A stretch of 64,000 bases of DNA from Candidatus Wolfebacteria bacterium GW2011_GWE2_44_13 (GTDB taxonomy: Bacteria; Patescibacteriota; Minisyncoccia; UBA6257; UBA9933): contig LCHW01000001.1 of assembly GCA_001000675.1 (NCBI GenBank), forward strand, positions 424,875-488,874. Direction: 5' to 3'. This document shows positions 2,901 through 10,915 of this stretch, in pieces. The translations under genes were made by a program, and so were the position numbers. The notes beneath the pieces are model-generated. The model did no database searches and was not told where the DNA came from. It saw nothing but the letters and a program-made list of their open reading frames with translations. Numbering within the stretch: position 1 is the first letter of the stretch; every line of letters begins with the position of its first letter.

Positions 2901-4073
2901 ATGAGAATTCTATTTACCGGTGGAGTAACAGGGGGGCATATTTATCCACTCGTCTCAGTGGCTGAAAAAATTTTAAAGGCGGGTAATGCAGACGCCGGTT
3001 TTGCCGACCTTTATTATGTAGGGGTTCCAGGTGTTTACCAGCAACTACTGGAGTCAAAAGGAATAATCGTTTCTCGTATTGCATCGGCTAAGCTTCGTCG
3101 CGGTGATGTGTTGCGTAATCTTATCGATTTGCCGGTATTTTTTATCAGCGTATTACAAGCGCTGTGGCAAGTGTTTTGGATTATGCCCGACGTACTCTTT
3201 TCAAAAGGAGGTCCGGGTGCGCTCCCTGTTGTATTGGCTTGTGCATTTTATCGCATTCCGATTATTATTCACGAATCAGATTCGGTTGCGGGGCTTACGA
3301 GCGCTGCTTCTGCACGATTCGCGAAACGGATTGGCATTGCCTATGTAGCTGCAAAAGAGTCTTTTATTCCGCGTAATGCAAGTGAACGTAAGCGATCGAT
3401 GATAGAGCAAAAGATAGCACTTATTGGAAATCCAATTCGAGAGTTCTTTTTTGCTAATACCGAAGTAGATAAAGAAGGGGCAAAACGACTTTTTGATTTC
3501 GATCCCGCAAAGCCACTCATTCTTATTATGGGCGGATCTCAGGGCGCAGTGCGCATCAATGAATTTATACTATCGGTTGCAGAGGACTTGCTAAGTCAAA
3601 ATATGCAAATCTTGCATCAAGTAGGGACGAATAATTTTACTGCTGCAGAAGCGGAAATGCGCGTGATTACACAAAAATATTCCGATGCACTCCGACGTTC
3701 CTATCGCATGGTTCCGTATTTTGAACAAGACCTTAGGGAAGCGTATCTTGCTGCGGATCTTGTTATTTCACGAGCGGGGAGTGGTTCGATATTTGAAATC
3801 GCGGCTATGGGATGCCCTGCCATTCTTATTCCACTACCCGAATCTATTTCGCGCGATCAGGTAAAAAATGCCTTTGAATATGCCGCAACAGGGGCTGCGA
3901 TCACGTTGGAAGAGTCTAATCTCACGAAGCATATATTCTTCAATCAACTCGAACGACTTACGGCAAATCCTGAAACGTTTGCCTCTATGGCAGCTGCGGC
4001 AAAAGCGTTTGCTCGTCCAGATGCCGCTGAAACATTAGCATCAGAAATTATACGACTAGGAAGTAGACAATGA
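2901..4073 (+). CDS. murG: UDP-N-acetylglucosamine--N-acetylmuramyl-(pentapeptide) pyrophosphoryl-undecaprenol GlcNAc transferase.
   Basis: The N-terminus is MRILFTGGVTGGHIYP (G-loop), and the C-terminal glycosyltransferase domain is present. The gene sits in dcw-type context after ftsW. Confidence 0.9.
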   Translation: MRILFTGGVTGGHIYPLVSVAEKILKAGNADAGFADLYYVGVPGVYQQLLESKGIIVSRIASAKLRRGDVLRNLIDLPVFFISVLQALWQVFWIMPDVLFSKGGPGALPVVLACAFYRIPIIIHESDSVAGLTSAASARFAKRIGIAYVAAKESFIPRNASERKRSMIEQKIALIGNPIREFFFANTEVDKEGAKRLFDFDPAKPLILIMGGSQGAVRINEFILSVAEDLLSQNMQILHQVGTNNFTAAEAEMRVITQKYSDALRRSYRMVPYFEQDLREAYLAADLVISRAGSGSIFEIAAMGCPAILIPLPESISRDQVKNAFEYAATGAAITLEESNLTKHIFFNQLERLTANPETFASMAAAAKAFARPDAAETLASEIIRLGSRQ

Positions 4074-7491: not shown

Positions 7492-8751
7492 ATGAATATT
7501 GTAACAAAAAAGGGGATAGTTACTCTTGCAATTACTGCGATGGCCGCGGGGTCTTTTGGTGTTGCTTTTGCTCAAACACCAACTGAGCTTAAAGAAGCAA
7601 TCGAGAAAAAACGACAAGAAGAACAAGCGCTTGGTACGCAAATTAAAGCGGTGCAAGAAAAACTTGAAGTTACTGCCGGTGAAAAACAAACTCTGCAACG
7701 CGAATTAAATCAAATTAGTGGAACGGTTAAGCAACTTGATCTGGGTATTAAGCAAAGTGTTATTGTTGCTGAAAAGCTTGGCTATGAAATAAAAGATACA
7801 CAATATACCATTGAAGAATCTGAGGAGCGTATTTTGGAACGCAAAAAAGAAATTAGTGAAATGCTTCGACAGGTACAACGCAAGGACACATCATCAGGAC
7901 CCCTCATGTCTATCTTGAGCGGAAAAAAGTTGACGGACACCCTTACAGAGATTCAGGCGTTGCTTGATTTTCAAGATAAGTTTTCGCAAGATATTCGTGA
8001 GTTGCAAGATTATACTATTGAGCTCGGTGGACATTTAAAAACTGCCGAAGAGAAAAAACGCTTAAAAGAAATAGAAGGCGAAAATTATAAAAATAAGAAA
8101 GTTATTTTAAGTGAAACGGAACGCTATCAGCAACAGCTTCTTGCACAGACAAAAAATAAAGAACAGCTGTACCAGAATTCACTTGCAGAACTGAAGAAGC
8201 AGCAAGATAAGATTGACCTTGAAATTGCGCGATTAGAAGAAGAAGCGCGTAAGAGTATTAACTTTGGCGCATTGCCAAAAGTTGATACCAGTCCGTTAAT
8301 GATGCCGGCGCAAGGAAAACTTACGCAAGGGTATGGATCAACACCGTTTGCACTGCGTAATTACGCAAGTAAACGGCATAATGGTATCGATATTGCCGCA
8401 CCCGTGGGTACACCGATTTACGCAGCTGCCGATGGGCGAGTCGTAGGAGTTGCTGATCAAGACTTGTATTGTCGAAAAGGTGCATACGGTAAGTTCGTCG
8501 CCATTACGCATTACAATGGTTTAACTACCCTGTACGCGCATCTTTCGTTATGGAAGGTTCGTGAAGGGCAAGAAGTCAAAAAAGGAGATGTTATTGGCTA
8601 CATGGGCAATACCGGATTTTCTACGGGATCGCATTTACACTTTACGGTGTATGCAACACCGACGTTTAAGATTGCGCCAGCCGCAAAGACGTGTGGTCCG
8701 AAGATGCCGTTTGGAGGAGACCTCAATCCGTTCGACTACCTCGCTAAGTAA
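7492..8751 (+). CDS. M23 family metallopeptidase with a long N-terminal coiled coil (EnvC-like murein hydrolase / activator).
   Basis: There is a signal peptide and a roughly 250-aa coiled-coil region. The C-terminal M23 motifs are HNGIDIAAPVGTPIYAAADGRV and GNTGFSTGSHLHF. Confidence 0.85.
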   Translation: MNIVTKKGIVTLAITAMAAGSFGVAFAQTPTELKEAIEKKRQEEQALGTQIKAVQEKLEVTAGEKQTLQRELNQISGTVKQLDLGIKQSVIVAEKLGYEIKDTQYTIEESEERILERKKEISEMLRQVQRKDTSSGPLMSILSGKKLTDTLTEIQALLDFQDKFSQDIRELQDYTIELGGHLKTAEEKKRLKEIEGENYKNKKVILSETERYQQQLLAQTKNKEQLYQNSLAELKKQQDKIDLEIARLEEEARKSINFGALPKVDTSPLMMPAQGKLTQGYGSTPFALRNYASKRHNGIDIAAPVGTPIYAAADGRVVGVADQDLYCRKGAYGKFVAITHYNGLTTLYAHLSLWKVREGQEVKKGDVIGYMGNTGFSTGSHLHFTVYATPTFKIAPAAKTCGPKMPFGGDLNPFDYLAK

Positions 8752-8876
8752 AAACTTTGTTATTGGCGAGCTACTACGTTACGGGCCCCAATTAACTTGG
8801 TCGATGTACAACTCAGCACATCTTCCGCGTTAATTTTCCCGTGCCTTGCATCTCATCCAATAACAAAGTTTTTTCA
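8752..8876 (+). repeat. Perfect 15-bp inverted repeat (AAACTTTGTTATTGG / CCAATAACAAAGTTT) enclosing about 95 nt, followed by TTTT. Candidate structured 3'UTR element or small RNA.
   Basis: Seen directly in the sequence. The left arm starts right after the M23 stop codon. Confidence 0.5.
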
Positions 8877-8896
8877 CCACAGTAATAGGAAAAAGA

Positions 8897-8928
8897 TTCG
8901 CTACAGGGCTCTGTAGCGAATTTTTTCT
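8897..8928 (+). terminator. Rho-independent terminator (stem tcgctacag/ctgtagcga followed by attttttct).
   Basis: A 9-bp stem followed by a T-run, downstream of the M23 peptidase gene. Confidence 0.6.
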
Positions 8929-8943
8929 GTACGGCGGGGTAGT

Positions 8944-8957
8944 TATAGTGGTATAAT
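8944..8957 (+). promoter_or_regulatory. Extended -10 promoter element TGgTATAAT, placed 8 nt before the ATG at 8966 (likely a leaderless or near-leaderless transcript).
   Basis: The sequence gtgGTATAATgacgccatATG is read directly from the sequence. Confidence 0.4.
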
Positions 8958-8965
8958 GACGCCAT

Positions 8966-9136
8966 ATGACAGAACTTCTTAATCAGATCATCGATATTGC
9001 AAAAAGCATCGCTCATGTATTCGATGCAAGCATTTGGCCGCCGCTCGTAACAATAGTTAAGAGTATTGGCCACTTGTTCGTTAAAATCCTAGAGTTAAGT
9101 ATTATGGTGGTACAATGGCTTTTGGATAAATTTTAA
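8966..9136 (+). CDS. Small 56-aa hydrophobic/amphipathic peptide (MTELLNQIIDIAKSIAHVFDASIWPPLVTIVKSIGHLFVKILELSIMVVQWLLDKF).
   Basis: I translated this by hand, since it is below the cutoff of the ORF track. A promoter lies immediately upstream. The peptide is amphipathic and contains two Trp residues. It is overlapped by an antisense 86-aa ORF (8813..9073) with a GTG start, which I consider less likely. Confidence 0.3.
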   Translation: MTELLNQIIDIAKSIAHVFDASIWPPLVTIVKSIGHLFVKILELSIMVVQWLLDKF

Positions 9137-9207
9137 TTCGTTGTACGTTGTTTTTACACGTGCTATATGGTTTACTAATATTAGTACATCGATTTAATAT
9201 AAAGAAA

Positions 9208-9230
9208 TGATTATCTCGACGAGATAATCA
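9208..9230. promoter_or_regulatory. Perfect 23-bp palindrome TGATTATCTCG-A-CGAGATAATCA immediately upstream of the RBS of the 42-aa Cys-rich peptide gene. Candidate operator.
   Basis: The palindrome has 11-bp arms. No T-run follows it, so it reads as an operator rather than a terminator. Confidence 0.5.
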
Positions 9231-9249
9231 AGAAAGGAGAGTATTTTGT

Positions 9250-9378
9250 ATGGATAAAAAGCCGTACATCCCCCCGAAGATCGAAAAGGTTGAAAAAATG
9301 CAATTCCCAATCGAGATCATCCACGGCGGGAAGAAGATCATCTGCCGTCAATGCTCATCGTGCCATGGATGCAGGTAA
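9250..9378 (+). CDS. Small 42-aa Cys-rich peptide (MDKKPYIPPKIEKVEKMQFPIEIIHGGKKIICRQCSSCHGCR).
   Basis: Translated by hand. A strong SD (aaAGGAGAgtattttgtATG) precedes the ORF. The C-terminus ends in a CxxCxxCxxC motif. A rho-independent terminator follows directly. Confidence 0.4.
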   Translation: MDKKPYIPPKIEKVEKMQFPIEIIHGGKKIICRQCSSCHGCR

Positions 9379-9402
9379 AAACACCTCACGGTTTGTTTTC
9401 GT

Positions 9403-9431
9403 AAATGCCCCGCTGCTTGGGGCATTTTTTT
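9403..9431 (+). terminator. Rho-independent terminator (atgcccc-gctgctt-ggggcat followed by ttttttt).
   Basis: A hairpin plus a T-run directly after the stop codon of the small Cys peptide ORF. Confidence 0.7.
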
Positions 9432-9462
9432 AGCACGCATGCTTGTGATATAATTTATTATT

Positions 9463-10377
9463 ATGGCTGCTATTCAAAAGGATTTTAATTTTTTTAAAAA
9501 GCGTAGAAAGCAGGCTGTATATGTAAGGCCAAAGGTTATTTTAGTTGATGTCGATGGGACTGTAATCAAGCCACGTATTAAAATGTACTCGATGTCAGAG
9601 GAAAAACTTGGCAAACAAGCAGTCGCAAAAATAGAAAAAGATCGCATTAAGCCACTGCGGCAGCAGATGATTAAGCGACAGATTAGTTTTGAGGAGTATC
9701 TCCTTGGATTATCAAAAATCGATATCGAGCTGGGTGAATATTATCAGGATTATAAGCAATTCTTTTTTGATTTAGTGAAGCAGGGGATGCTTAACGAACC
9801 GCTTATACGCGCATTAGGGATACTTAAGAAAAAACATAACATGAAGGTTATTTTTCTTACGTCAAATCTGCGAATTTATGGGGAGATCATTAGTGACTAT
9901 GCGCTTCAATTATTAGGTGAAAAAGGCACGTTTGATGGCGCAGTTGGTGCGGAATATTTATTTGATAAAAAAGGCAAGGCAGTTGGTGTAAAAAGTCTTA
10001 TTAGCCATGATGATGCGAAATTAGGTGCGGTGTCTTTTATGACTAAAGAAACTGCGATCAAAAAATTTTTTAAAGTAAATAAGGTTACGGTTCGCGATGA
10101 AGAGATTGCCGTCGTGAGTGATGCCGATACGGCCTTGATGAAACTCTACGGACTTGGTGGTCTTGTGCTGTATCCACTAAGTGAATTATCAAGTCAGTTT
10201 AAAGAGATTGAGTATATCCGTAATGCGCGTGAGGGGTTGTTTGATTTTTGCGTGGATTATGCAAAAGGAAAAGACTTAGATATTGCACAAAAAAAGTGGG
10301 AGCTAGTACTAAGTGACCCCTCGATATTACGAATGTCTAACAGCGAAATAAAAACATATTTAAAAAATAATGACTAA
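9463..10377 (+). CDS. HAD-superfamily phosphatase-like protein.
   Basis: HAD motif I is VILVDVDGTV (DxDGT). Motif II is IFLTSN, and motif IV is VVSDADTAL. The gene overlaps the downstream P-loop kinase gene by 8 nt. Confidence 0.6.
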   Translation: MAAIQKDFNFFKKRRKQAVYVRPKVILVDVDGTVIKPRIKMYSMSEEKLGKQAVAKIEKDRIKPLRQQMIKRQISFEEYLLGLSKIDIELGEYYQDYKQFFFDLVKQGMLNEPLIRALGILKKKHNMKVIFLTSNLRIYGEIISDYALQLLGEKGTFDGAVGAEYLFDKKGKAVGVKSLISHDDAKLGAVSFMTKETAIKKFFKVNKVTVRDEEIAVVSDADTALMKLYGLGGLVLYPLSELSSQFKEIEYIRNAREGLFDFCVDYAKGKDLDIAQKKWELVLSDPSILRMSNSEIKTYLKNND

Positions 10378-10915
10378 GAAAAACAATATACTCGTTGCAC
10401 TCCATGGCCCTGCGGGCATAGGAAAAACAGCTGTCGCAGGAAAATTGTGTAAAAAGCTACCGGGCAAGACTGCGCGTATTTCGATCGACGTACTTCGTGA
10501 TATGACTTGTATGAGGTACACAAGCGGTCGCCAAAGCGATGAATATATCACTTTGTCCAAGAAACTTGCTCCTGGGCTAATACAGGACCTTTTTTCCAAT
10601 GGGTTTAATGTTGTTGTGGAGATAGCTCCGCCTACAGCAGCAGATAAGGGGAAAACTGATACGTGGCTTGTTAGTGAACTGTGGCGCTTAGGAGGAAGTG
10701 TTTTTTTACTTGATGCGCCGTTGGCTATGGTGTTACAGCGAAATAAAAAACGTACCGGTGAATTTGGCCAAGGAAATTTAACCAAAAAGTTAACTGAACA
10801 ATTATATCGATATTGTGAAAAATATTTAAATAGAAACGATTACATCGTTATTGAGACAACAAAGATTGGAGCGGATAAAGTAACATCGCTTATTATTGAG
10901 AAATTAGGGTTCTAA
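10370..10915 (+). CDS. P-loop kinase of the polynucleotide kinase (T4 Pnk-like) / zeta-toxin-like fold.
   Basis: The Walker A motif is LHGPAGIGKTAV. The segment LQRNKKRTGEF resembles the T4 PNK motif VKRNSKRGTK. Confidence 0.55.
   Translation: MTKKNNILVALHGPAGIGKTAVAGKLCKKLPGKTARISIDVLRDMTCMRYTSGRQSDEYITLSKKLAPGLIQDLFSNGFNVVVEIAPPTAADKGKTDTWLVSELWRLGGSVFLLDAPLAMVLQRNKKRTGEFGQGNLTKKLTEQLYRYCEKYLNRNDYIVIETTKIGADKVTSLIIEKLGF

What the first reader, a model, noticed from the sequence alone, without database searches (positions are those of the whole stretch)
9208..9431. Orphan 42-aa CxxCxxCxxC peptide gene with perfect 23-bp palindromic operator, strong SD and terminator
The peptide is MDKKPYIPPKIEKVEKMQFPIEIIHGGKKIICRQCSSCHGCR. 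It is too short for the ORF track but has a complete expression signal set: the palindrome TGATTATCTCGaCGAGATAATCA, an AGGAGA SD, and a GC hairpin followed by T7.

The C-terminal four-Cys knot suggests a zinc-ribbon mini-protein or a RiPP/ranthipeptide-like precursor. No maturase gene is adjacent. The palindrome implies that a dimeric regulator controls it.
Basis: seen in the sequence. Interest (0 to 1): 0.6.

Follow-up and report, generated by a model that had tools for sequence, protein, structure and literature searches.

The report
Stand-alone copy of radical-SAM precursor-type peptide
The 42-residue gene is real and belongs to a large, unnamed peptide family: in free-living anaerobes it sits inside a radical-SAM peptide-modifying gene cluster, but in tiny symbiotic microbes (as here) and in viruses it occurs alone, which raises the question of what a precursor-type peptide does without its enzymes.

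Summary
In detail: ORF 9250-9378, perfect palindrome 9208-9230, Shine-Dalgarno, hairpin plus T7.

The peptide is not an orphan in sequence.
- It belongs to an unannotated family: 101 cluster representatives by phmmer, 733 proteins by profile search, none of those listed with a Pfam domain.
- The family has a YxxPx[hydrophobic] motif about 27 residues before an invariant C-terminal CxQC[SG][SG]CH[GS]CR.

Context depends on who carries it.
- In 49 of 80 genomic loci it lies between a radical-SAM/SPASM gene plus a PqqD-like recognition protein and tailoring genes.
- Adjacent enzymes are present in 48 of 57 other genomes, but in only 1 of 9 CPR loci, 0 of 8 DPANN loci and 0 of 49 judgeable viral contigs. 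In viruses the gene lies by terminase and portal genes.
- The window comes from a CPR groundwater bacterium. It has no cluster homologue from 17.5 kb upstream to 54.6 kb downstream.

A zinc ribbon is not supported. Whether the palindrome is an operator or a 5' RNA hairpin is unresolved.

Best reading: a monocistronic precursor-type peptide whose partners act in trans, or which works as a mimic. I rate it a new variant of a known kind, of moderately high interest.

The parts
9153..9200 (+). Promoter-like region with two candidate sigma-70-type sites. (1) TTTACA 9153-9158, 17-nt spacer, TAATAT ending 9181. (2) TTTACT 9171-9176, 18-nt spacer, TAATAT 9195-9200.
   Evidence: Site 1 comes from the consensus scan (9 of 12 matches; 4 sites found against 2.6 expected in shuffles, so weak). 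Site 2 is my own reading and would put the transcription start at about 9207-9208, the first base of the palindrome. Neither is verified experimentally.
9208..9230 (.). Perfect palindrome TGATTATCTCG-A-CGAGATAATCA between the promoter and the SD. It is either an operator or a 5'-UTR stem-loop (10 bp with a GAC triloop).
   Evidence: Arms are 100% complementary. It is unique in the window and 0 of 100 shuffles match. The RNA hairpin is -10.7 kcal/mol, z = -2.7, and leaves the SD unpaired. Two other CPR stand-alone loci (L037, L039) carry a different 7-bp hairpin ending right at GAAAGGAGG, although those two are not better than shuffles.
9234..9240 (+). Shine-Dalgarno AAGGAGA, 10 nt from the GGAG core to the ATG.
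   Evidence: Read. It stays single-stranded in the predicted fold. The nine other CPR stand-alone family genes also have GGAG or GGAGG-type sites.
9250..9378 (+). 42-aa peptide gene, a member of an unannotated peptide family.
   Evidence: ORF. phmmer: 101 hits at E<=1e-3, best short hits 55-68% identical and co-terminal. Alignment A1 has Y6, P9, C32, Q34, C35, C38, H39 and C41 invariant. A profile search found 733 proteins.
9265..9282 (+). Leader-type motif Y6-I-P-P9-K-I11 (YxxPx[hydrophobic]), the putative RRE-docking site.
   Evidence: Y and P are invariant in A1. The motif is present in 45/45 cluster-associated, 9/9 CPR and 46/53 viral peptides. [Y/W]xxPx[L/V/I/F/A] is the motif recognised by discrete RREs according to PMC13381572. 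Binding was not tested here.
9343..9375 (+). Invariant C-terminal core C32-R-Q-C-S-S-C-H-G-C-R42, ending at the stop codon. It contains a CxxCH element.
   Evidence: CRQCSSCHGCR is the commonest ending in every context class. The Y-to-first-Cys spacing is 27 in 41 of 45 cluster peptides and 26 here. The CxxCHG element causes spurious matches to multi-domain cytochromes c.
9403..9431 (+). Intrinsic terminator: stem AAATGCCCC/GGGGCATTT, 7-nt loop, T7.
   Evidence: Most of the other CPR stand-alone genes (for example L029, L037, L039, L067, L073, L076) also have a hairpin right after the stop codon (my reading), so the unit is monocistronic.

Best explanation
The region 9153-9431 is a self-contained, monocistronic unit: promoter, palindrome or hairpin, SD, 42-aa ORF, terminator. 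It encodes a genuine member of a very widespread but unannotated peptide family.

**Architecture.** The family looks like a leader plus core.
- An N-terminal YxxPx[I/L/V] motif, of the kind bound by PqqD-type RiPP recognition elements.
- A spacer of nearly fixed length, about 27 residues.
- An invariant C-terminal CxQC[SG][SG]CH[GS]CR that ends the protein.

**Usual genomic setting.** In free-living anaerobic bacteria and archaea the gene lies in a conserved operon with this order:
1. radical-SAM/SPASM enzyme
2. PqqD-like protein
3. the peptide
4. a large MBL-fold, HD-like or dGTPase-like protein
5. a prenyltransferase/squalene-cyclase-like alpha-toroid protein
6. a glutamine-dependent asparagine-synthase-type amidotransferase
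7. a glycosyltransferase

**Inferred mechanism for the family.** The PqqD-like protein docks the YxxP leader. The radical-SAM/SPASM enzyme, with the other enzymes, then modifies the Cys-rich C-terminus.

**The window copy.** It is one of the stand-alone copies that are the rule in CPR bacteria, DPANN archaea and viral contigs. It keeps both the leader motif and the core intact, so it is still under selection to interact with the same kind of partner. That partner must act in trans, either from elsewhere in this genome or possibly from another cell.

**Shown:** family membership, operon association in other organisms, absence of partners over 72 kb here, intact motifs.
**Inferred:** leader-RRE docking, modification of the core, action in trans.
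**Unresolved:** whether the palindrome is a protein operator or an mRNA 5' hairpin.
For: **Family membership**
- E-values run from 3.7e-11 to 1e-3 for 101 cluster representatives. Matches are co-terminal and 45-68% identical.
- A profile search found 733 proteins, and all 120 listed lack Pfam domains.
- Eighty genomic loci span Desulfobacterota, Chloroflexota, Actinomycetota, Bacteroidales, Bathyarchaeia, Methanoperedens/ANME, CPR and DPANN.

**Operon**
- Neighbour clustering gives six conserved same-strand partners.
- They were identified as Radical_SAM+SPASM, PqqD, MBL-fold, SQHop_cyclase/Prenyltrans, Asn_synthase+GATase and GT1/GT4.
- HMMs detect the PqqD-like gene in 50 genomic loci and the radical-SAM gene in 49.

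**Leader logic**
- YxxPx[hydrophobic] is present in 45 of 45 cluster peptides at a fixed spacing.
- It matches the RRE-binding motif described in PMC13381572.
- AlphaFold2 predicts an extended peptide with no compact fold, as expected for a precursor.

**Stand-alone state**
- No cluster homologue in the window by tblastn or HMM, nor in 8.3 kb further upstream.
- CPR 1 of 9 and DPANN 0 of 8 loci have adjacent enzymes, against 48 of 57 other genomes (Fisher p = 4e-9). Viral contigs: 0 of 49 (p = 4e-21).

**Monocistronic unit**
-. The SD plus terminator layout recurs in the other CPR stand-alone genes.
Against: - No modification chemistry was tested. No member of this family or cluster appears in the literature I could search.
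- The cluster's radical-SAM enzyme scores below the curated cut-off of every named maturase family, so 'RiPP' rests on context only.
- Near-invariance of the core across two domains of life is unusual for antibiotic-type RiPPs. It fits a cofactor, a signal or a metal site better.
- I could examine only about 72 kb of a genome of unknown total size (the longest contig carrying the neighbouring gene is 0.79 Mb), so a partner in trans is neither shown nor excluded.
- In five relatives with 60-82% identical neighbour genes the peptide is absent from the 17-kb loci retrieved. Conservation in sister genomes at this site is therefore not shown.
- There is no expression evidence for this organism.
Confidence: 0.55

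Rival explanations
1. Autonomous metal-binding mini-protein. The unmodified peptide uses its four Cys and one His (CxQCSSCHGC) to bind Zn, an Fe-S cluster or haem (CxxCH). It would work on its own as a redox or metal carrier or as a small regulator. In the big clusters it would be a partner or scaffold of the enzymes rather than their substrate.
For: - The core is invariant across bacteria, archaea and viruses, and it is retained where no enzymes are nearby.
- C35-x-x-C38-H39 is an exact haem-c-type motif, and it drives matches to multi-domain cytochromes c.
- The cluster radical-SAM enzyme is about as similar to the tetrapyrrole enzymes AhbD and NirJ as to peptide maturases.
- The near-constant overall length is compatible with a defined structure.
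Against: - No compact fold is predicted (pTM 0.25), and there is no PDB or Pfam relative.
- Four Cys within 10 residues is not a zinc-ribbon geometry.
- There is no signal peptide for c-type haem attachment (reading of the sequence).
- The invariant YxxP leader-type motif and the tight pairing with a PqqD-like RRE in 50 loci are hard to explain without leader recognition.
Confidence: 0.2
2. Mimic or decoy carried by parasites. The stand-alone copies in viruses, CPR and DPANN imitate the host's peptide. They would either titrate or hijack the host's radical-SAM/PqqD system, which may itself be defence-like. The window gene would then be a tool of the CPR episymbiont against, or for exploiting, its host.
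For: - Stand-alone copies are concentrated in entities that depend on a host: viruses 0 of 49, DPANN 0 of 8 and CPR 1 of 9 with adjacent enzymes, against 48 of 57 other genomes.
- Viral copies fall into the same three leader subtypes as host cluster copies.
- The slot after the peptide holds interchangeable large proteins: MBL-fold, an HD-like 575-aa protein, or a protein matching a PADLOC dGTPase model at 2.9e-50. Such swapping resembles effector swapping in defence systems.
- The best single phmmer hit of the window peptide is archaeal, of the DPANN type, which suggests horizontal movement.
Against: - There is no evidence that CPR peptides reach a host cytoplasm.
- The window gene sits among housekeeping genes, with no match to the packaging and head genes found in the peptide-bearing viral contigs.
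- Apart from the dGTPase-like component and a generic radical-SAM resemblance to viperins, the cluster proteins do not match PADLOC models.
- Many CPR and DPANN contigs I hold cover only 20 kb, so partner enzymes may simply lie elsewhere.
Confidence: 0.15
3. Decaying remnant or non-expressed ORF. The gene would have been acquired horizontally without its cluster and now have no function.
For: - No gene caller annotated it in any public assembly.
- It is absent from the loci of five relatives.
- G+C is slightly lower at 9.0-11.0 kb, 0.37-0.40 against roughly 0.40-0.46 in the preceding 4 kb and 0.41-0.53 in the following 4 kb.
Against: - All eight invariant family residues are intact, as are the start codon, the SD and the terminator.
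- The same intact stand-alone layout recurs in nine other CPR and about ten DPANN loci.
- The sequence is identical in all nine retrieved copies of this population, which come from several samples, although these copies are too close to one another to be informative.
Confidence: 0.05
4. Concerning the palindrome only. It may be (a) the operator of a dimeric DNA-binding regulator that represses the gene, or (b) a 5'-terminal or 5'-UTR mRNA stem-loop that stabilises a very short transcript or tunes translation. I weigh these at about 45% and 40%, with 15% for something else.
For: (a) Operator
- Perfect 11+11 dyad symmetry, including the two central positions that cannot pair in a hairpin.
- Its position spans about +1 to +23 of the better-placed promoter candidate (my reading).
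- DPANN stand-alone loci have a divergent TrmB-like regulator and a conserved palindrome-containing intergenic region, so repressor control of this peptide has a parallel.

(b) RNA hairpin
- A stable hairpin (-10.7 kcal/mol, z = -2.7) that leaves the SD free.
- L037 and L039 have an unrelated hairpin ending at the same place relative to the SD.
Against: (a) Operator
- I identified no regulator gene near the locus, though the window was not annotated exhaustively.
- There is no second site in 64 kb.
- Fifteen metagenome matches to the 19-nt core are all unrelated loci. That scan also failed to return this organism's own records, so it is incomplete.

(b) RNA hairpin
- Most CPR stand-alone loci have no such hairpin, and the L037 and L039 folds are not better than shuffles.
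- There is no Rfam match.
Confidence: 0.45

Closest known systems
Radical-SAM/SPASM-dependent RiPP precursors with a discrete PqqD-like RRE (sactipeptides, ranthipeptides/SCIFF, PapA-PapB, ACGX, SbtM systems)
   Same: - A short Cys-rich peptide is encoded next to a radical-SAM/SPASM enzyme and a PqqD-family protein in 49-50 of 80 loci.
- The architecture is leader plus core.
- The best NCBIfam similarities of the enzyme are to ACGX-system, SbtM, AhbD/NirJ and ScmE-type proteins.
   Different: - The enzyme is below the curated cut-off of every named family: ACGX 193.6 against 400, SbtM 181.6 against 350, PapB 82.7 against 340.
- The peptide matches no NCBIfam, Pfam or PHROG model.
- The core is invariant across domains of life rather than variable.
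- The cluster adds an alpha-toroid protein, a true AsnB-type amidotransferase, a glycosyltransferase and a swappable large MBL or HD protein.
- The window copy has no enzymes nearby.
Lasso peptide and 'linear polyphosphorylated peptide' leaders recognised by discrete RREs (PMC13381572)
   Same: - The N-terminal YxxPx[L/V/I/F/A] motif; the window has Y-I-P-P-K-I.
- A separate small PqqD-like RRE gene immediately upstream of the peptide in the clusters.
- An asparagine-synthase homologue is present.
   Different: - The asparagine-synthase homologue passes the cut-off for genuine glutamine-hydrolysing AsnB (273 against 267.1). It fails the lasso cyclase model (109.5 against 525).
- There is no B2 leader peptidase among the conserved genes.
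- The C-terminal core has no Asp or Glu acceptor.
Peptide-derived cofactor pathways (PQQ: PqqA/PqqD/PqqE; mycofactocin: MftA/MftB/MftC/MftF)
   Same: - A very short peptide with invariant C-terminal residues.
- A radical-SAM/SPASM enzyme plus a PqqD-type chaperone.
- A glycosyltransferase in the cluster, as with MftF.
- Core conservation across distant taxa.
   Different: - Scores to PqqE and MftC models are far below their cut-offs (104.9 against 381; 106.1 against 265).
- The core chemistry differs: four Cys, His and Ser rather than Glu/Tyr or Val-Tyr.
- To my knowledge, stand-alone copies in viruses have not been described for those systems.
Class I cytochrome c haem-binding site (CxxCH)
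   Same: C35-S-S-C38-H39-G is identical to typical CxxCHG haem-attachment sites. It produces phmmer and NCBIfam matches to cytochromes c.
   Different: - Only the 6-residue motif matches.
- There is no cytochrome fold and no signal peptide.
- The two extra invariant Cys and the invariant Gln are not part of cytochrome sites.

Membership tests
Unnamed peptide family YxxPx[hyd] - about 27 aa - CxQC[SG][SG]CH[GS]CR-COOH (defined here) | Invariant Cys/Gln/His core located at the extreme C-terminus | tested here: met
   The window peptide ends ...CRQCSSCHGCR-stop. C32, Q34, C35, C38, H39 and C41 are invariant in 53 aligned members. The same ending dominates every context class.
Unnamed peptide family YxxPx[hyd] - about 27 aa - CxQC[SG][SG]CH[GS]CR-COOH (defined here) | YxxPx[hydrophobic] motif at a fixed distance (25-28 residues) before the first Cys | tested here: met
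   Y6-I-P-P9-K-I11, with 26 residues from Y6 to C32. The family mode is 27, in 41 of 45 cluster peptides.
Unnamed peptide family YxxPx[hyd] - about 27 aa - CxQC[SG][SG]CH[GS]CR-COOH (defined here) | Statistically significant full-length similarity to other members | tested here: met
   phmmer against 1.84e9 proteins: 101 hits at E<=1e-3, best short hit 3.7e-11 at 68% identity.
Radical-SAM/SPASM-modified RiPP precursor (sactipeptide or ranthipeptide type) | Radical-SAM/SPASM maturase encoded next to the precursor | tested here: not met
   In the window there is none from 17.5 kb upstream to 54.6 kb downstream. At family level the feature is met in 49 of 80 genomic loci.
Radical-SAM/SPASM-modified RiPP precursor (sactipeptide or ranthipeptide type) | RRE (PqqD-like domain or protein) available for leader binding | tested here: not met
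   No PqqD-like ORF in the window by HMM at E<=1. At family level a discrete 90-120-aa PqqD protein lies directly upstream in 50 loci. The rest of the genome could not be searched.
Radical-SAM/SPASM-modified RiPP precursor (sactipeptide or ranthipeptide type) | Thioether or other radical-SAM-installed cross-links on the core | not testable with these tools
   This needs mass spectrometry or NMR of peptide co-expressed with the cluster enzymes.
Radical-SAM/SPASM-modified RiPP precursor (sactipeptide or ranthipeptide type) | Maturase belongs to a named curated family (PapB, SCIFF maturase, ACGX, SbtM, and so on) | tested here: not met
   The cluster enzyme (L086 8579-9631) is below the cut-off for all 82 NCBIfam models it touches. 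The best is ACGX at 193.6 against 400.
Zinc-ribbon mini-protein | Two CxxC knuckles separated by beta-hairpin-forming sequence | tested here: not met
   All four Cys lie in one contiguous 10-residue stretch, C32-x2-C-x2-C-x2-C41.
Zinc-ribbon mini-protein | Compact beta-rich fold, or a match to a known zinc-ribbon family | tested here: not met
   AlphaFold2 with a 53-sequence alignment gives pTM 0.25, no strands, and pLDDT 54-62 at the C-terminus. No Pfam hit and no PDB hit at E<=1. AlphaFold2 does not model metals, so metal binding as such is not excluded.
Lasso peptide precursor | Leader motif [Y/W]xxPx[L/V/I/F/A] | tested here: met
   YIPPKI in the window. The motif definition is from PMC13381572.
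Lasso peptide precursor | Lasso cyclase (Asn-synthase homologue) and B2 leader peptidase in the cluster; Asp or Glu acceptor in the core | tested here: not met
   The cluster Asn-synthase homologue passes the AsnB model (273 against 267.1) and fails the lasso cyclase model (109.5 against 525). No peptidase is among the conserved neighbours. The last 11 residues contain no Asp or Glu.
c-type cytochrome | CxxCH motif | tested here: met
   C35-S-S-C38-H39, invariant in the family.
c-type cytochrome | Export signal and cytochrome c domain | tested here: not met
   The N-terminus is lysine-rich with no hydrophobic signal segment (sequence). Only 12-bit, motif-level hits to cytochrome models. The long phmmer hits are multi-domain cytochromes matched through the motif alone.
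PQQ / mycofactocin-type peptide-derived cofactor system | PqqE or MftC-family radical-SAM enzyme | tested here: not met
   PqqE 104.9 against 381.35 and MftC 106.1 against 265. The resemblance is architectural only.

The most novel reading that the evidence does not exclude
Three kinds of host-dependent entities have each picked up only the peptide gene of a host radical-SAM/PqqD system: tailed viruses (inside their terminase-portal module), DPANN archaea and CPR bacteria such as this one.

That host system has interchangeable nuclease or HD-type large subunits and may be a defence or signalling system. The stand-alone peptides would act as molecular mimics. They would titrate the host's recognition protein and enzyme (anti-defence), or use the host's enzymes to be matured.

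The window gene, under its own palindrome-controlled promoter, would then be a symbiont weapon or key rather than a biosynthetic precursor of the CPR cell's own pathway.
Probability: 0.15. Interest if true: 0.9.

Novelty: new variant of a known kind. Interest (0 to 1): 0.68.

Why it matters
- **An overlooked family.** Automated gene calling skipped this 129-nt gene in every public assembly of this organism. It nevertheless led to a peptide family with hundreds of members that has no Pfam, NCBIfam or PHROG model, and I found no paper on it.
- **New enzymology to test.** The associated seven-gene radical-SAM/SPASM cluster is widespread in sediment and groundwater anaerobes of both prokaryotic domains. 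It combines enzymes not known to act together on a peptide: an alpha-toroid protein, a true AsnB amidotransferase and a glycosyltransferase. The invariant Cys/His core could give rise to a new cofactor, signal or cross-linked peptide.
- **An unexplained distribution.** Free-living hosts have the enzymes next to the peptide, whereas CPR, DPANN and viruses carry the peptide alone. To my knowledge this pattern has not been reported for RiPP-type precursors. It makes a concrete question testable: do reduced symbionts and viruses exploit or sabotage a host peptide-modification system? That bears on how CPR and DPANN cells interact with their hosts, which is a long-standing open problem.
- **If partners are simply elsewhere in the genome.** The result is still a new, well-defined RiPP-like family with a clean precursor signature for genome mining.

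Tried and rejected
- **k-mer homology search with the single peptide** found nothing. The exhaustive phmmer search solved this.
- **Strain copies L001-L009** are 100% identical across the intergenic region, so they carry no selection signal.
- **Functional link to the downstream HAD-like and AAA_33 genes: considered, left unproven.**
  - The pair is conserved as an overlapping pair in five relatives (60-82% identity), but none of those 17-kb loci has the peptide.
  - The AAA_33 protein is a full-length 29%-identical homologue of a kinase inside variant clusters L060, L061 and L084.
  - P-loop kinases recur near stand-alone copies in L025, L029, L054, L062 and L076.
  - The L029 pair is not detectably homologous to the window pair.
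- **Palindrome regulon.** There is no second site in the window.
- **Prophage origin of the window locus.** No hit in the window to the packaging and head genes (terminase, portal, virion protein) taken from the peptide-bearing viral contigs. Only loosely phage-like neighbours: a PNK-like kinase, NUDIX and a PD-(D/E)XK exonuclease. The G+C dip is mild.
- **Known RNA element.** No Rfam match.
- **Cultured phages and plasmids.** No tblastn match.
- **Defence-system membership.** Only the dGTPase-like component and a generic radical-SAM/viperin resemblance hit PADLOC.
- **Small His/Cys-rich partner protein** found downstream of the peptide in five loci. An HMM found no further copies and none in the window.
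- **Literature.** Eight full-text searches and four papers consulted gave no description of the family or cluster.
- **Fold search of the peptide model** was not run, because pTM 0.25 would give meaningless matches.
Full report
**1. The observation**

- An ATG-initiated 42-codon ORF at 9250-9378 encodes MDKKPYIPPKIEKVEKMQFPIEIIHGGKKIICRQCSSCHGCR.
- Upstream lies the perfect palindrome TGATTATCTCG-A-CGAGATAATCA at 9208-9230. It is unique in the 64-kb window even with three mismatches allowed, and none of 100 dinucleotide-preserving shuffles produced a match.
- AAGGAGA at 9234-9240 precedes the ATG at a workable distance.
- After the stop codon, AAATGCCCC/GGGGCATTT at 9403-9427 forms a hairpin that runs into seven T.
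- The consensus terminator scan did not list this hairpin. My reading is that its stem overlaps the T-run. The scan instead flagged the palindrome as terminator-like on the minus strand, where no gene needs one.
- Two sigma-70-like promoter candidates lie at 9153-9181 and 9171-9200 (my reading). The second would start transcription at the first base of the palindrome.

**2. Source organism**

The neighbouring genes occur identically on groundwater metagenome contigs from Rifle, Colorado, and in the assembly GCA_003508115.1. One source labels the neighbouring protein ACD_81C00126G0023 of an uncultured bacterium, and its closest homologues are labelled Patescibacteria or Paceibacterota. This is therefore a CPR bacterium.
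- The surrounding genes are housekeeping: FtsW, MurG, GltX, an M23 peptidase, and ribosomal proteins L27 and L9.
- Nine retrieved copies are 100% identical across the intergenic region, so they say nothing about selection.
- No pipeline called the 42-codon ORF.

**3. The peptide is not an orphan**

- A word-index search found nothing.
- An exhaustive phmmer search of 1.84 billion cluster representatives found 101 proteins at E<=1e-3. Nearly all are 40-70 residues long, 45-68% identical, and end at the same C-terminus.
- The few long hits are multi-domain cytochromes c matched only through their CxxCHG haem sites.
- An alignment of 53 members has Y6, P9, C32, Q34, C35, C38, H39 and C41 invariant. 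K13, F19, S36 and R42 are nearly invariant. The consensus is K..YEKPxIxKxxKMxFPxxII......VCRQCSSCHGCR.
- A profile search returned 733 proteins. All 120 listed lack Pfam domains and are named 'hypothetical' where they are named at all.
- The peptide matches no Pfam, NCBIfam, PHROG, PADLOC or PDB entry.
- Eight full-text literature searches found no description of it.

**4. What surrounds family members elsewhere**

A scan of one genome per species returned 80 loci from Desulfobacterota, Chloroflexota, Actinomycetota, Bacteroidales, Bathyarchaeia, Methanoperedens/ANME, Thermoplasmatota, CPR and DPANN.

Clustering of neighbouring ORFs revealed a conserved operon, all on the same strand:
1. a radical-SAM/SPASM protein of about 350 aa
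2. a PqqD-like protein of about 100 aa
3. the peptide
4. a large protein, interchangeably a roughly 1035-aa MBL-fold protein, a roughly 575-aa protein with HD-like motifs (my reading), or a roughly 900-960-aa protein (896-960 aa in the four loci that have it) matching a PADLOC dGTPase model at 2.9e-50
5. a roughly 280-aa squalene-cyclase/prenyltransferase-like alpha-toroid protein
6. a roughly 575-aa asparagine synthase with an intact glutaminase domain
7. a GT1/GT4 glycosyltransferase

- The radical-SAM enzyme is most similar to ACGX-system, SbtM, AhbD/NirJ and ScmE proteins, but it is below the curated cut-off of every one.
- The asparagine-synthase homologue passes the cut-off of genuine AsnB (273 against 267.1 bits) and fails the lasso-cyclase model.
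- HMMs built from these clusters detect the PqqD-like gene in 50 of the genomic loci and the radical-SAM gene in 49.

This is the standard signature of a RiPP-type, or peptide-derived-cofactor-type, pathway with a discrete recognition protein.

**5. Leader logic**

- Every cluster-associated peptide has YxxPx[hydrophobic]. In 41 of 45 the Tyr is exactly 27 residues before the first Cys. In the window it is 26.
- [Y/W]xxPx[L/V/I/F/A] is the motif recognised by discrete RREs of lasso peptides and of the recently described linear polyphosphorylated peptides, where YxxP is essential for RRE binding (PMC13381572).
- The window peptide has Y-I-P-P-K-I.
- AlphaFold2 with the family alignment predicts an extended chain with one short helix: pTM 0.25, no strands, and the lowest confidence at the Cys-rich end. 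That fits a precursor better than a folded zinc ribbon.
- Four Cys within ten residues is not zinc-ribbon geometry in any case.

**6. The window copy stands alone, as do most copies in CPR, DPANN and viruses**

In the window:
- No cluster protein has a tblastn hit (E<1e-3) or an HMM hit (E<=1) in the 64-kb window.
- A further 8.3 kb upstream holds only LemA, SecA and similar genes.

Across the 80 loci, counting only those with at least 1.6 kb upstream:

| Group | With adjacent radical-SAM/PqqD genes | Judgeable loci |
|---|---|---|
| Non-CPR, non-DPANN genomes | 48 | 57 |
| CPR | 1 | 9 |
| DPANN | 0 | 8 |

The difference between CPR plus DPANN and the other genomes gives Fisher p = 4e-9.

The CPR stand-alone genes each have their own SD, and most have a hairpin right after the stop codon (my reading). 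They are monocistronic, like the window's.

The DPANN copies share a different fixed context:
- a divergent TrmB-like regulator
- a conserved intergenic region with a GTCATGTTACATGAC-like palindrome and a TATA box
- often a CheY-like receiver gene downstream

The best single phmmer hit of the window peptide (P0002, on locus L096) is of this archaeal type.

**7. Viruses**

- A scan of IMG/VR found 62 viral contigs encoding family members.
- None encodes a radical-SAM or PqqD homologue by BLAST or HMM. Among the 49 contigs with enough upstream sequence the count is 0 of 49 (p = 4e-21 against the host genomes).
- The gene sits in the packaging and head module. In 29 contigs a member of a neighbour cluster whose representative PHROGs identifies as terminase large or small subunit, portal, adaptor or virion protein lies within 4 kb. 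In 28 of these it is on the same strand, often in the order TerS/TerL - peptide - portal.
- Some 'genomic' stand-alone loci are prophage-like as well: L074 and L081 match terminase or portal genes, and the gene after the L079 peptide looks capsid-like by eye.
- Four viral contigs and the DPANN-type locus L096 keep only an AsnB-like PP-loop protein. It lies next to the peptide in three of the viral contigs and close downstream in L096.
- Viral peptides fall into the same three leader subtypes as host-cluster peptides: M.FP, M.FMF and NGGRFC.
- No cultured phage or plasmid record has the peptide.

**8. Interpretation**

*Shown*
- The ORF is a bona fide family member with every invariant residue intact.
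- The family is tied to a radical-SAM/SPASM plus PqqD operon in free-living anaerobes.
- The window copy and its CPR, DPANN and viral counterparts lack adjacent enzymes.

*Inferred*
- The PqqD-like protein docks the YxxP leader, and the enzymes modify the C-terminal core.
- Because leader motif, spacing and core are all retained in the stand-alone copies, they are still selected to meet the same kind of partner.

For this CPR cell the partner is either encoded elsewhere in the genome, which I could not search, or belongs to another cell.

*Rival readings*
- The peptide works unmodified as a Cys4-His metal or haem binder.
- Stand-alone copies are mimics used by host-dependent entities against, or on, a host system whose swappable MBL, HD or dGTPase-like subunit resembles defence-system effectors.
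- The window copy is a functionless relic. I consider this unlikely, given the intact signals and the recurrent layout.

**9. The palindrome**

- It is a singular site. There are no further copies or half-site pairs in the window and no Rfam match.
- Fifteen metagenome matches to its 19-nt core all lie in unrelated sequence. That scan did not even return this organism's own JGI records, so it is not exhaustive.
- As RNA it forms a 10-bp stem with a GAC triloop (-10.7 kcal/mol, z = -2.7) and leaves the SD unpaired.
- Two other CPR stand-alone loci (L037, L039) have an unrelated 7-bp hairpin ending at the same position relative to the SD. Their folds are not better than shuffles.
- Perfect symmetry through the centre, and the TrmB parallel in DPANN, favour an operator.
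- The failure to find a regulator gene or a second site, together with the positional parallel in L037 and L039, favours an mRNA 5' hairpin.
- I leave this open at roughly 45:40.

**10. The downstream genes**

- The HAD-like gene (9463-10377) and the AAA_33 kinase-like gene (10370-10915) form an overlapping pair. The pair is conserved in five Paceibacteria-type relatives, always in a different neighbourhood and never with the peptide in the 17 kb retrieved.
- The kinase resembles phage polynucleotide kinases. It is also 29% identical over its full length to a kinase encoded inside variant clusters.
- P-loop kinases also recur next to stand-alone copies in other CPR and DPANN loci.
- This is a lead, not a demonstrated link.

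**11. Verdict**

'Orphan' and 'zinc ribbon' are not supported, and the operator claim is unproven.

I file the finding as a new variant of a known kind: a radical-SAM/SPASM plus RRE peptide system with a previously undescribed, highly conserved precursor. Its unusual property is that CPR, DPANN and viruses carry the precursor gene alone.

Noticed in passing
window 9463-10915 (+); L091-L095 around 8001-9470: A HAD-like 304-aa gene and an AAA_33 P-loop kinase-like 181-aa gene overlap by a few bases. The pair is conserved in five related CPR genomes, each time in a different neighbourhood. The kinase hits the phage polynucleotide kinase family phrog_505. Together they resemble a split kinase-phosphatase of the T4 Pnkp type (that comparison is from memory).
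   Followed up: partly
L093 12025-13461: A related CPR genome encodes a 423-aa radical-SAM/SPASM protein. It is followed by an unrelated 43-aa Cys-rich peptide, MFELKKVTNETEENQEQKGVGCPPSSVCNPTMCLPYGCSPAKP, which looks like a separate RiPP-like pair in CPR.
   Followed up: no
L015, L024, L062, L069, L089, L096 (DPANN-type loci), intergenic region upstream of the peptide: A divergent TrmB-like regulator of about 238 aa and a conserved intergenic sequence (...GTCATGTTACATGAC/TA...TTTAAATA) precede the peptide gene. A CheY-like receiver protein of about 130-165 aa follows the peptide in L015, L069 and L089.
   Followed up: partly
L128, L131, L145 (viral), L059, L096: ORF immediately next to the peptide: A small His/Cys-rich protein of 86-136 aa with a shared motif (...H.C.G....YKI......H.I.T.YA.GHG...F.FTK) accompanies stand-alone peptides in five loci. 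An HMM found no further copies in the held loci or in the window.
   Followed up: yes
L025, L054, L062, L076, within about 2 kb of the peptide: A P-loop NTPase of about 190 aa and an aminoglycoside-phosphotransferase-like kinase of about 300-340 aa (assigned from motifs by eye) occur next to stand-alone peptides in one unclassified bacterium, two DPANN archaea and one CPR bacterium.
   Followed up: partly
L056 12023-14905; L060, L061, L084 at about +4.4 kb from the peptide: Variant clusters carry a protein of roughly 900-960 aa that matches the PADLOC dGTPase defence model (E = 2.9e-50). They also hold a second radical-SAM gene and an AAA_33 kinase.
   Followed up: partly
window 8896-8921: A strong 11-bp hairpin, ATTCGCTACAG...CTGTAGCGAAT, flanked by T- and A-runs lies just after the M23 peptidase gene. 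It looks like a bidirectional intrinsic terminator that isolates the small-gene region from the upstream operon.
   Followed up: no
window 8966-9136 (+): A 56-aa hydrophobic ORF, called as a gene in most of the public assemblies retrieved, lies between the M23 peptidase gene and the peptide gene. It has no Pfam or PHROG match and no relative in any locus fetched.
   Followed up: partly
L092 7521-8000: The intergenic region upstream of the HAD-like gene in one relative contains tRNA-like T-arm sequences (GGTTCAAATCCTC...) twice, suggesting tRNA genes at the position where the window has the peptide gene. It was not run through ARAGORN.
   Followed up: no
L100 about 3900-4010 and L101 about 1700-1810: An unrelated metagenome sequence, present on two contigs in opposite orientation, carries several adjacent ATCTCGACGAGAT-type palindromes. 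This may be an operator array in another organism.
   Followed up: no
window 9312-9320: Inside the peptide ORF, CGAGATCAT resembles the right half-site of the palindrome (CGAGATAAT, 8 of 9 bases) about 90 nt downstream. One-mismatch matches to the half-site are not clearly enriched in the window (25 found against 19 expected).
   Followed up: yes
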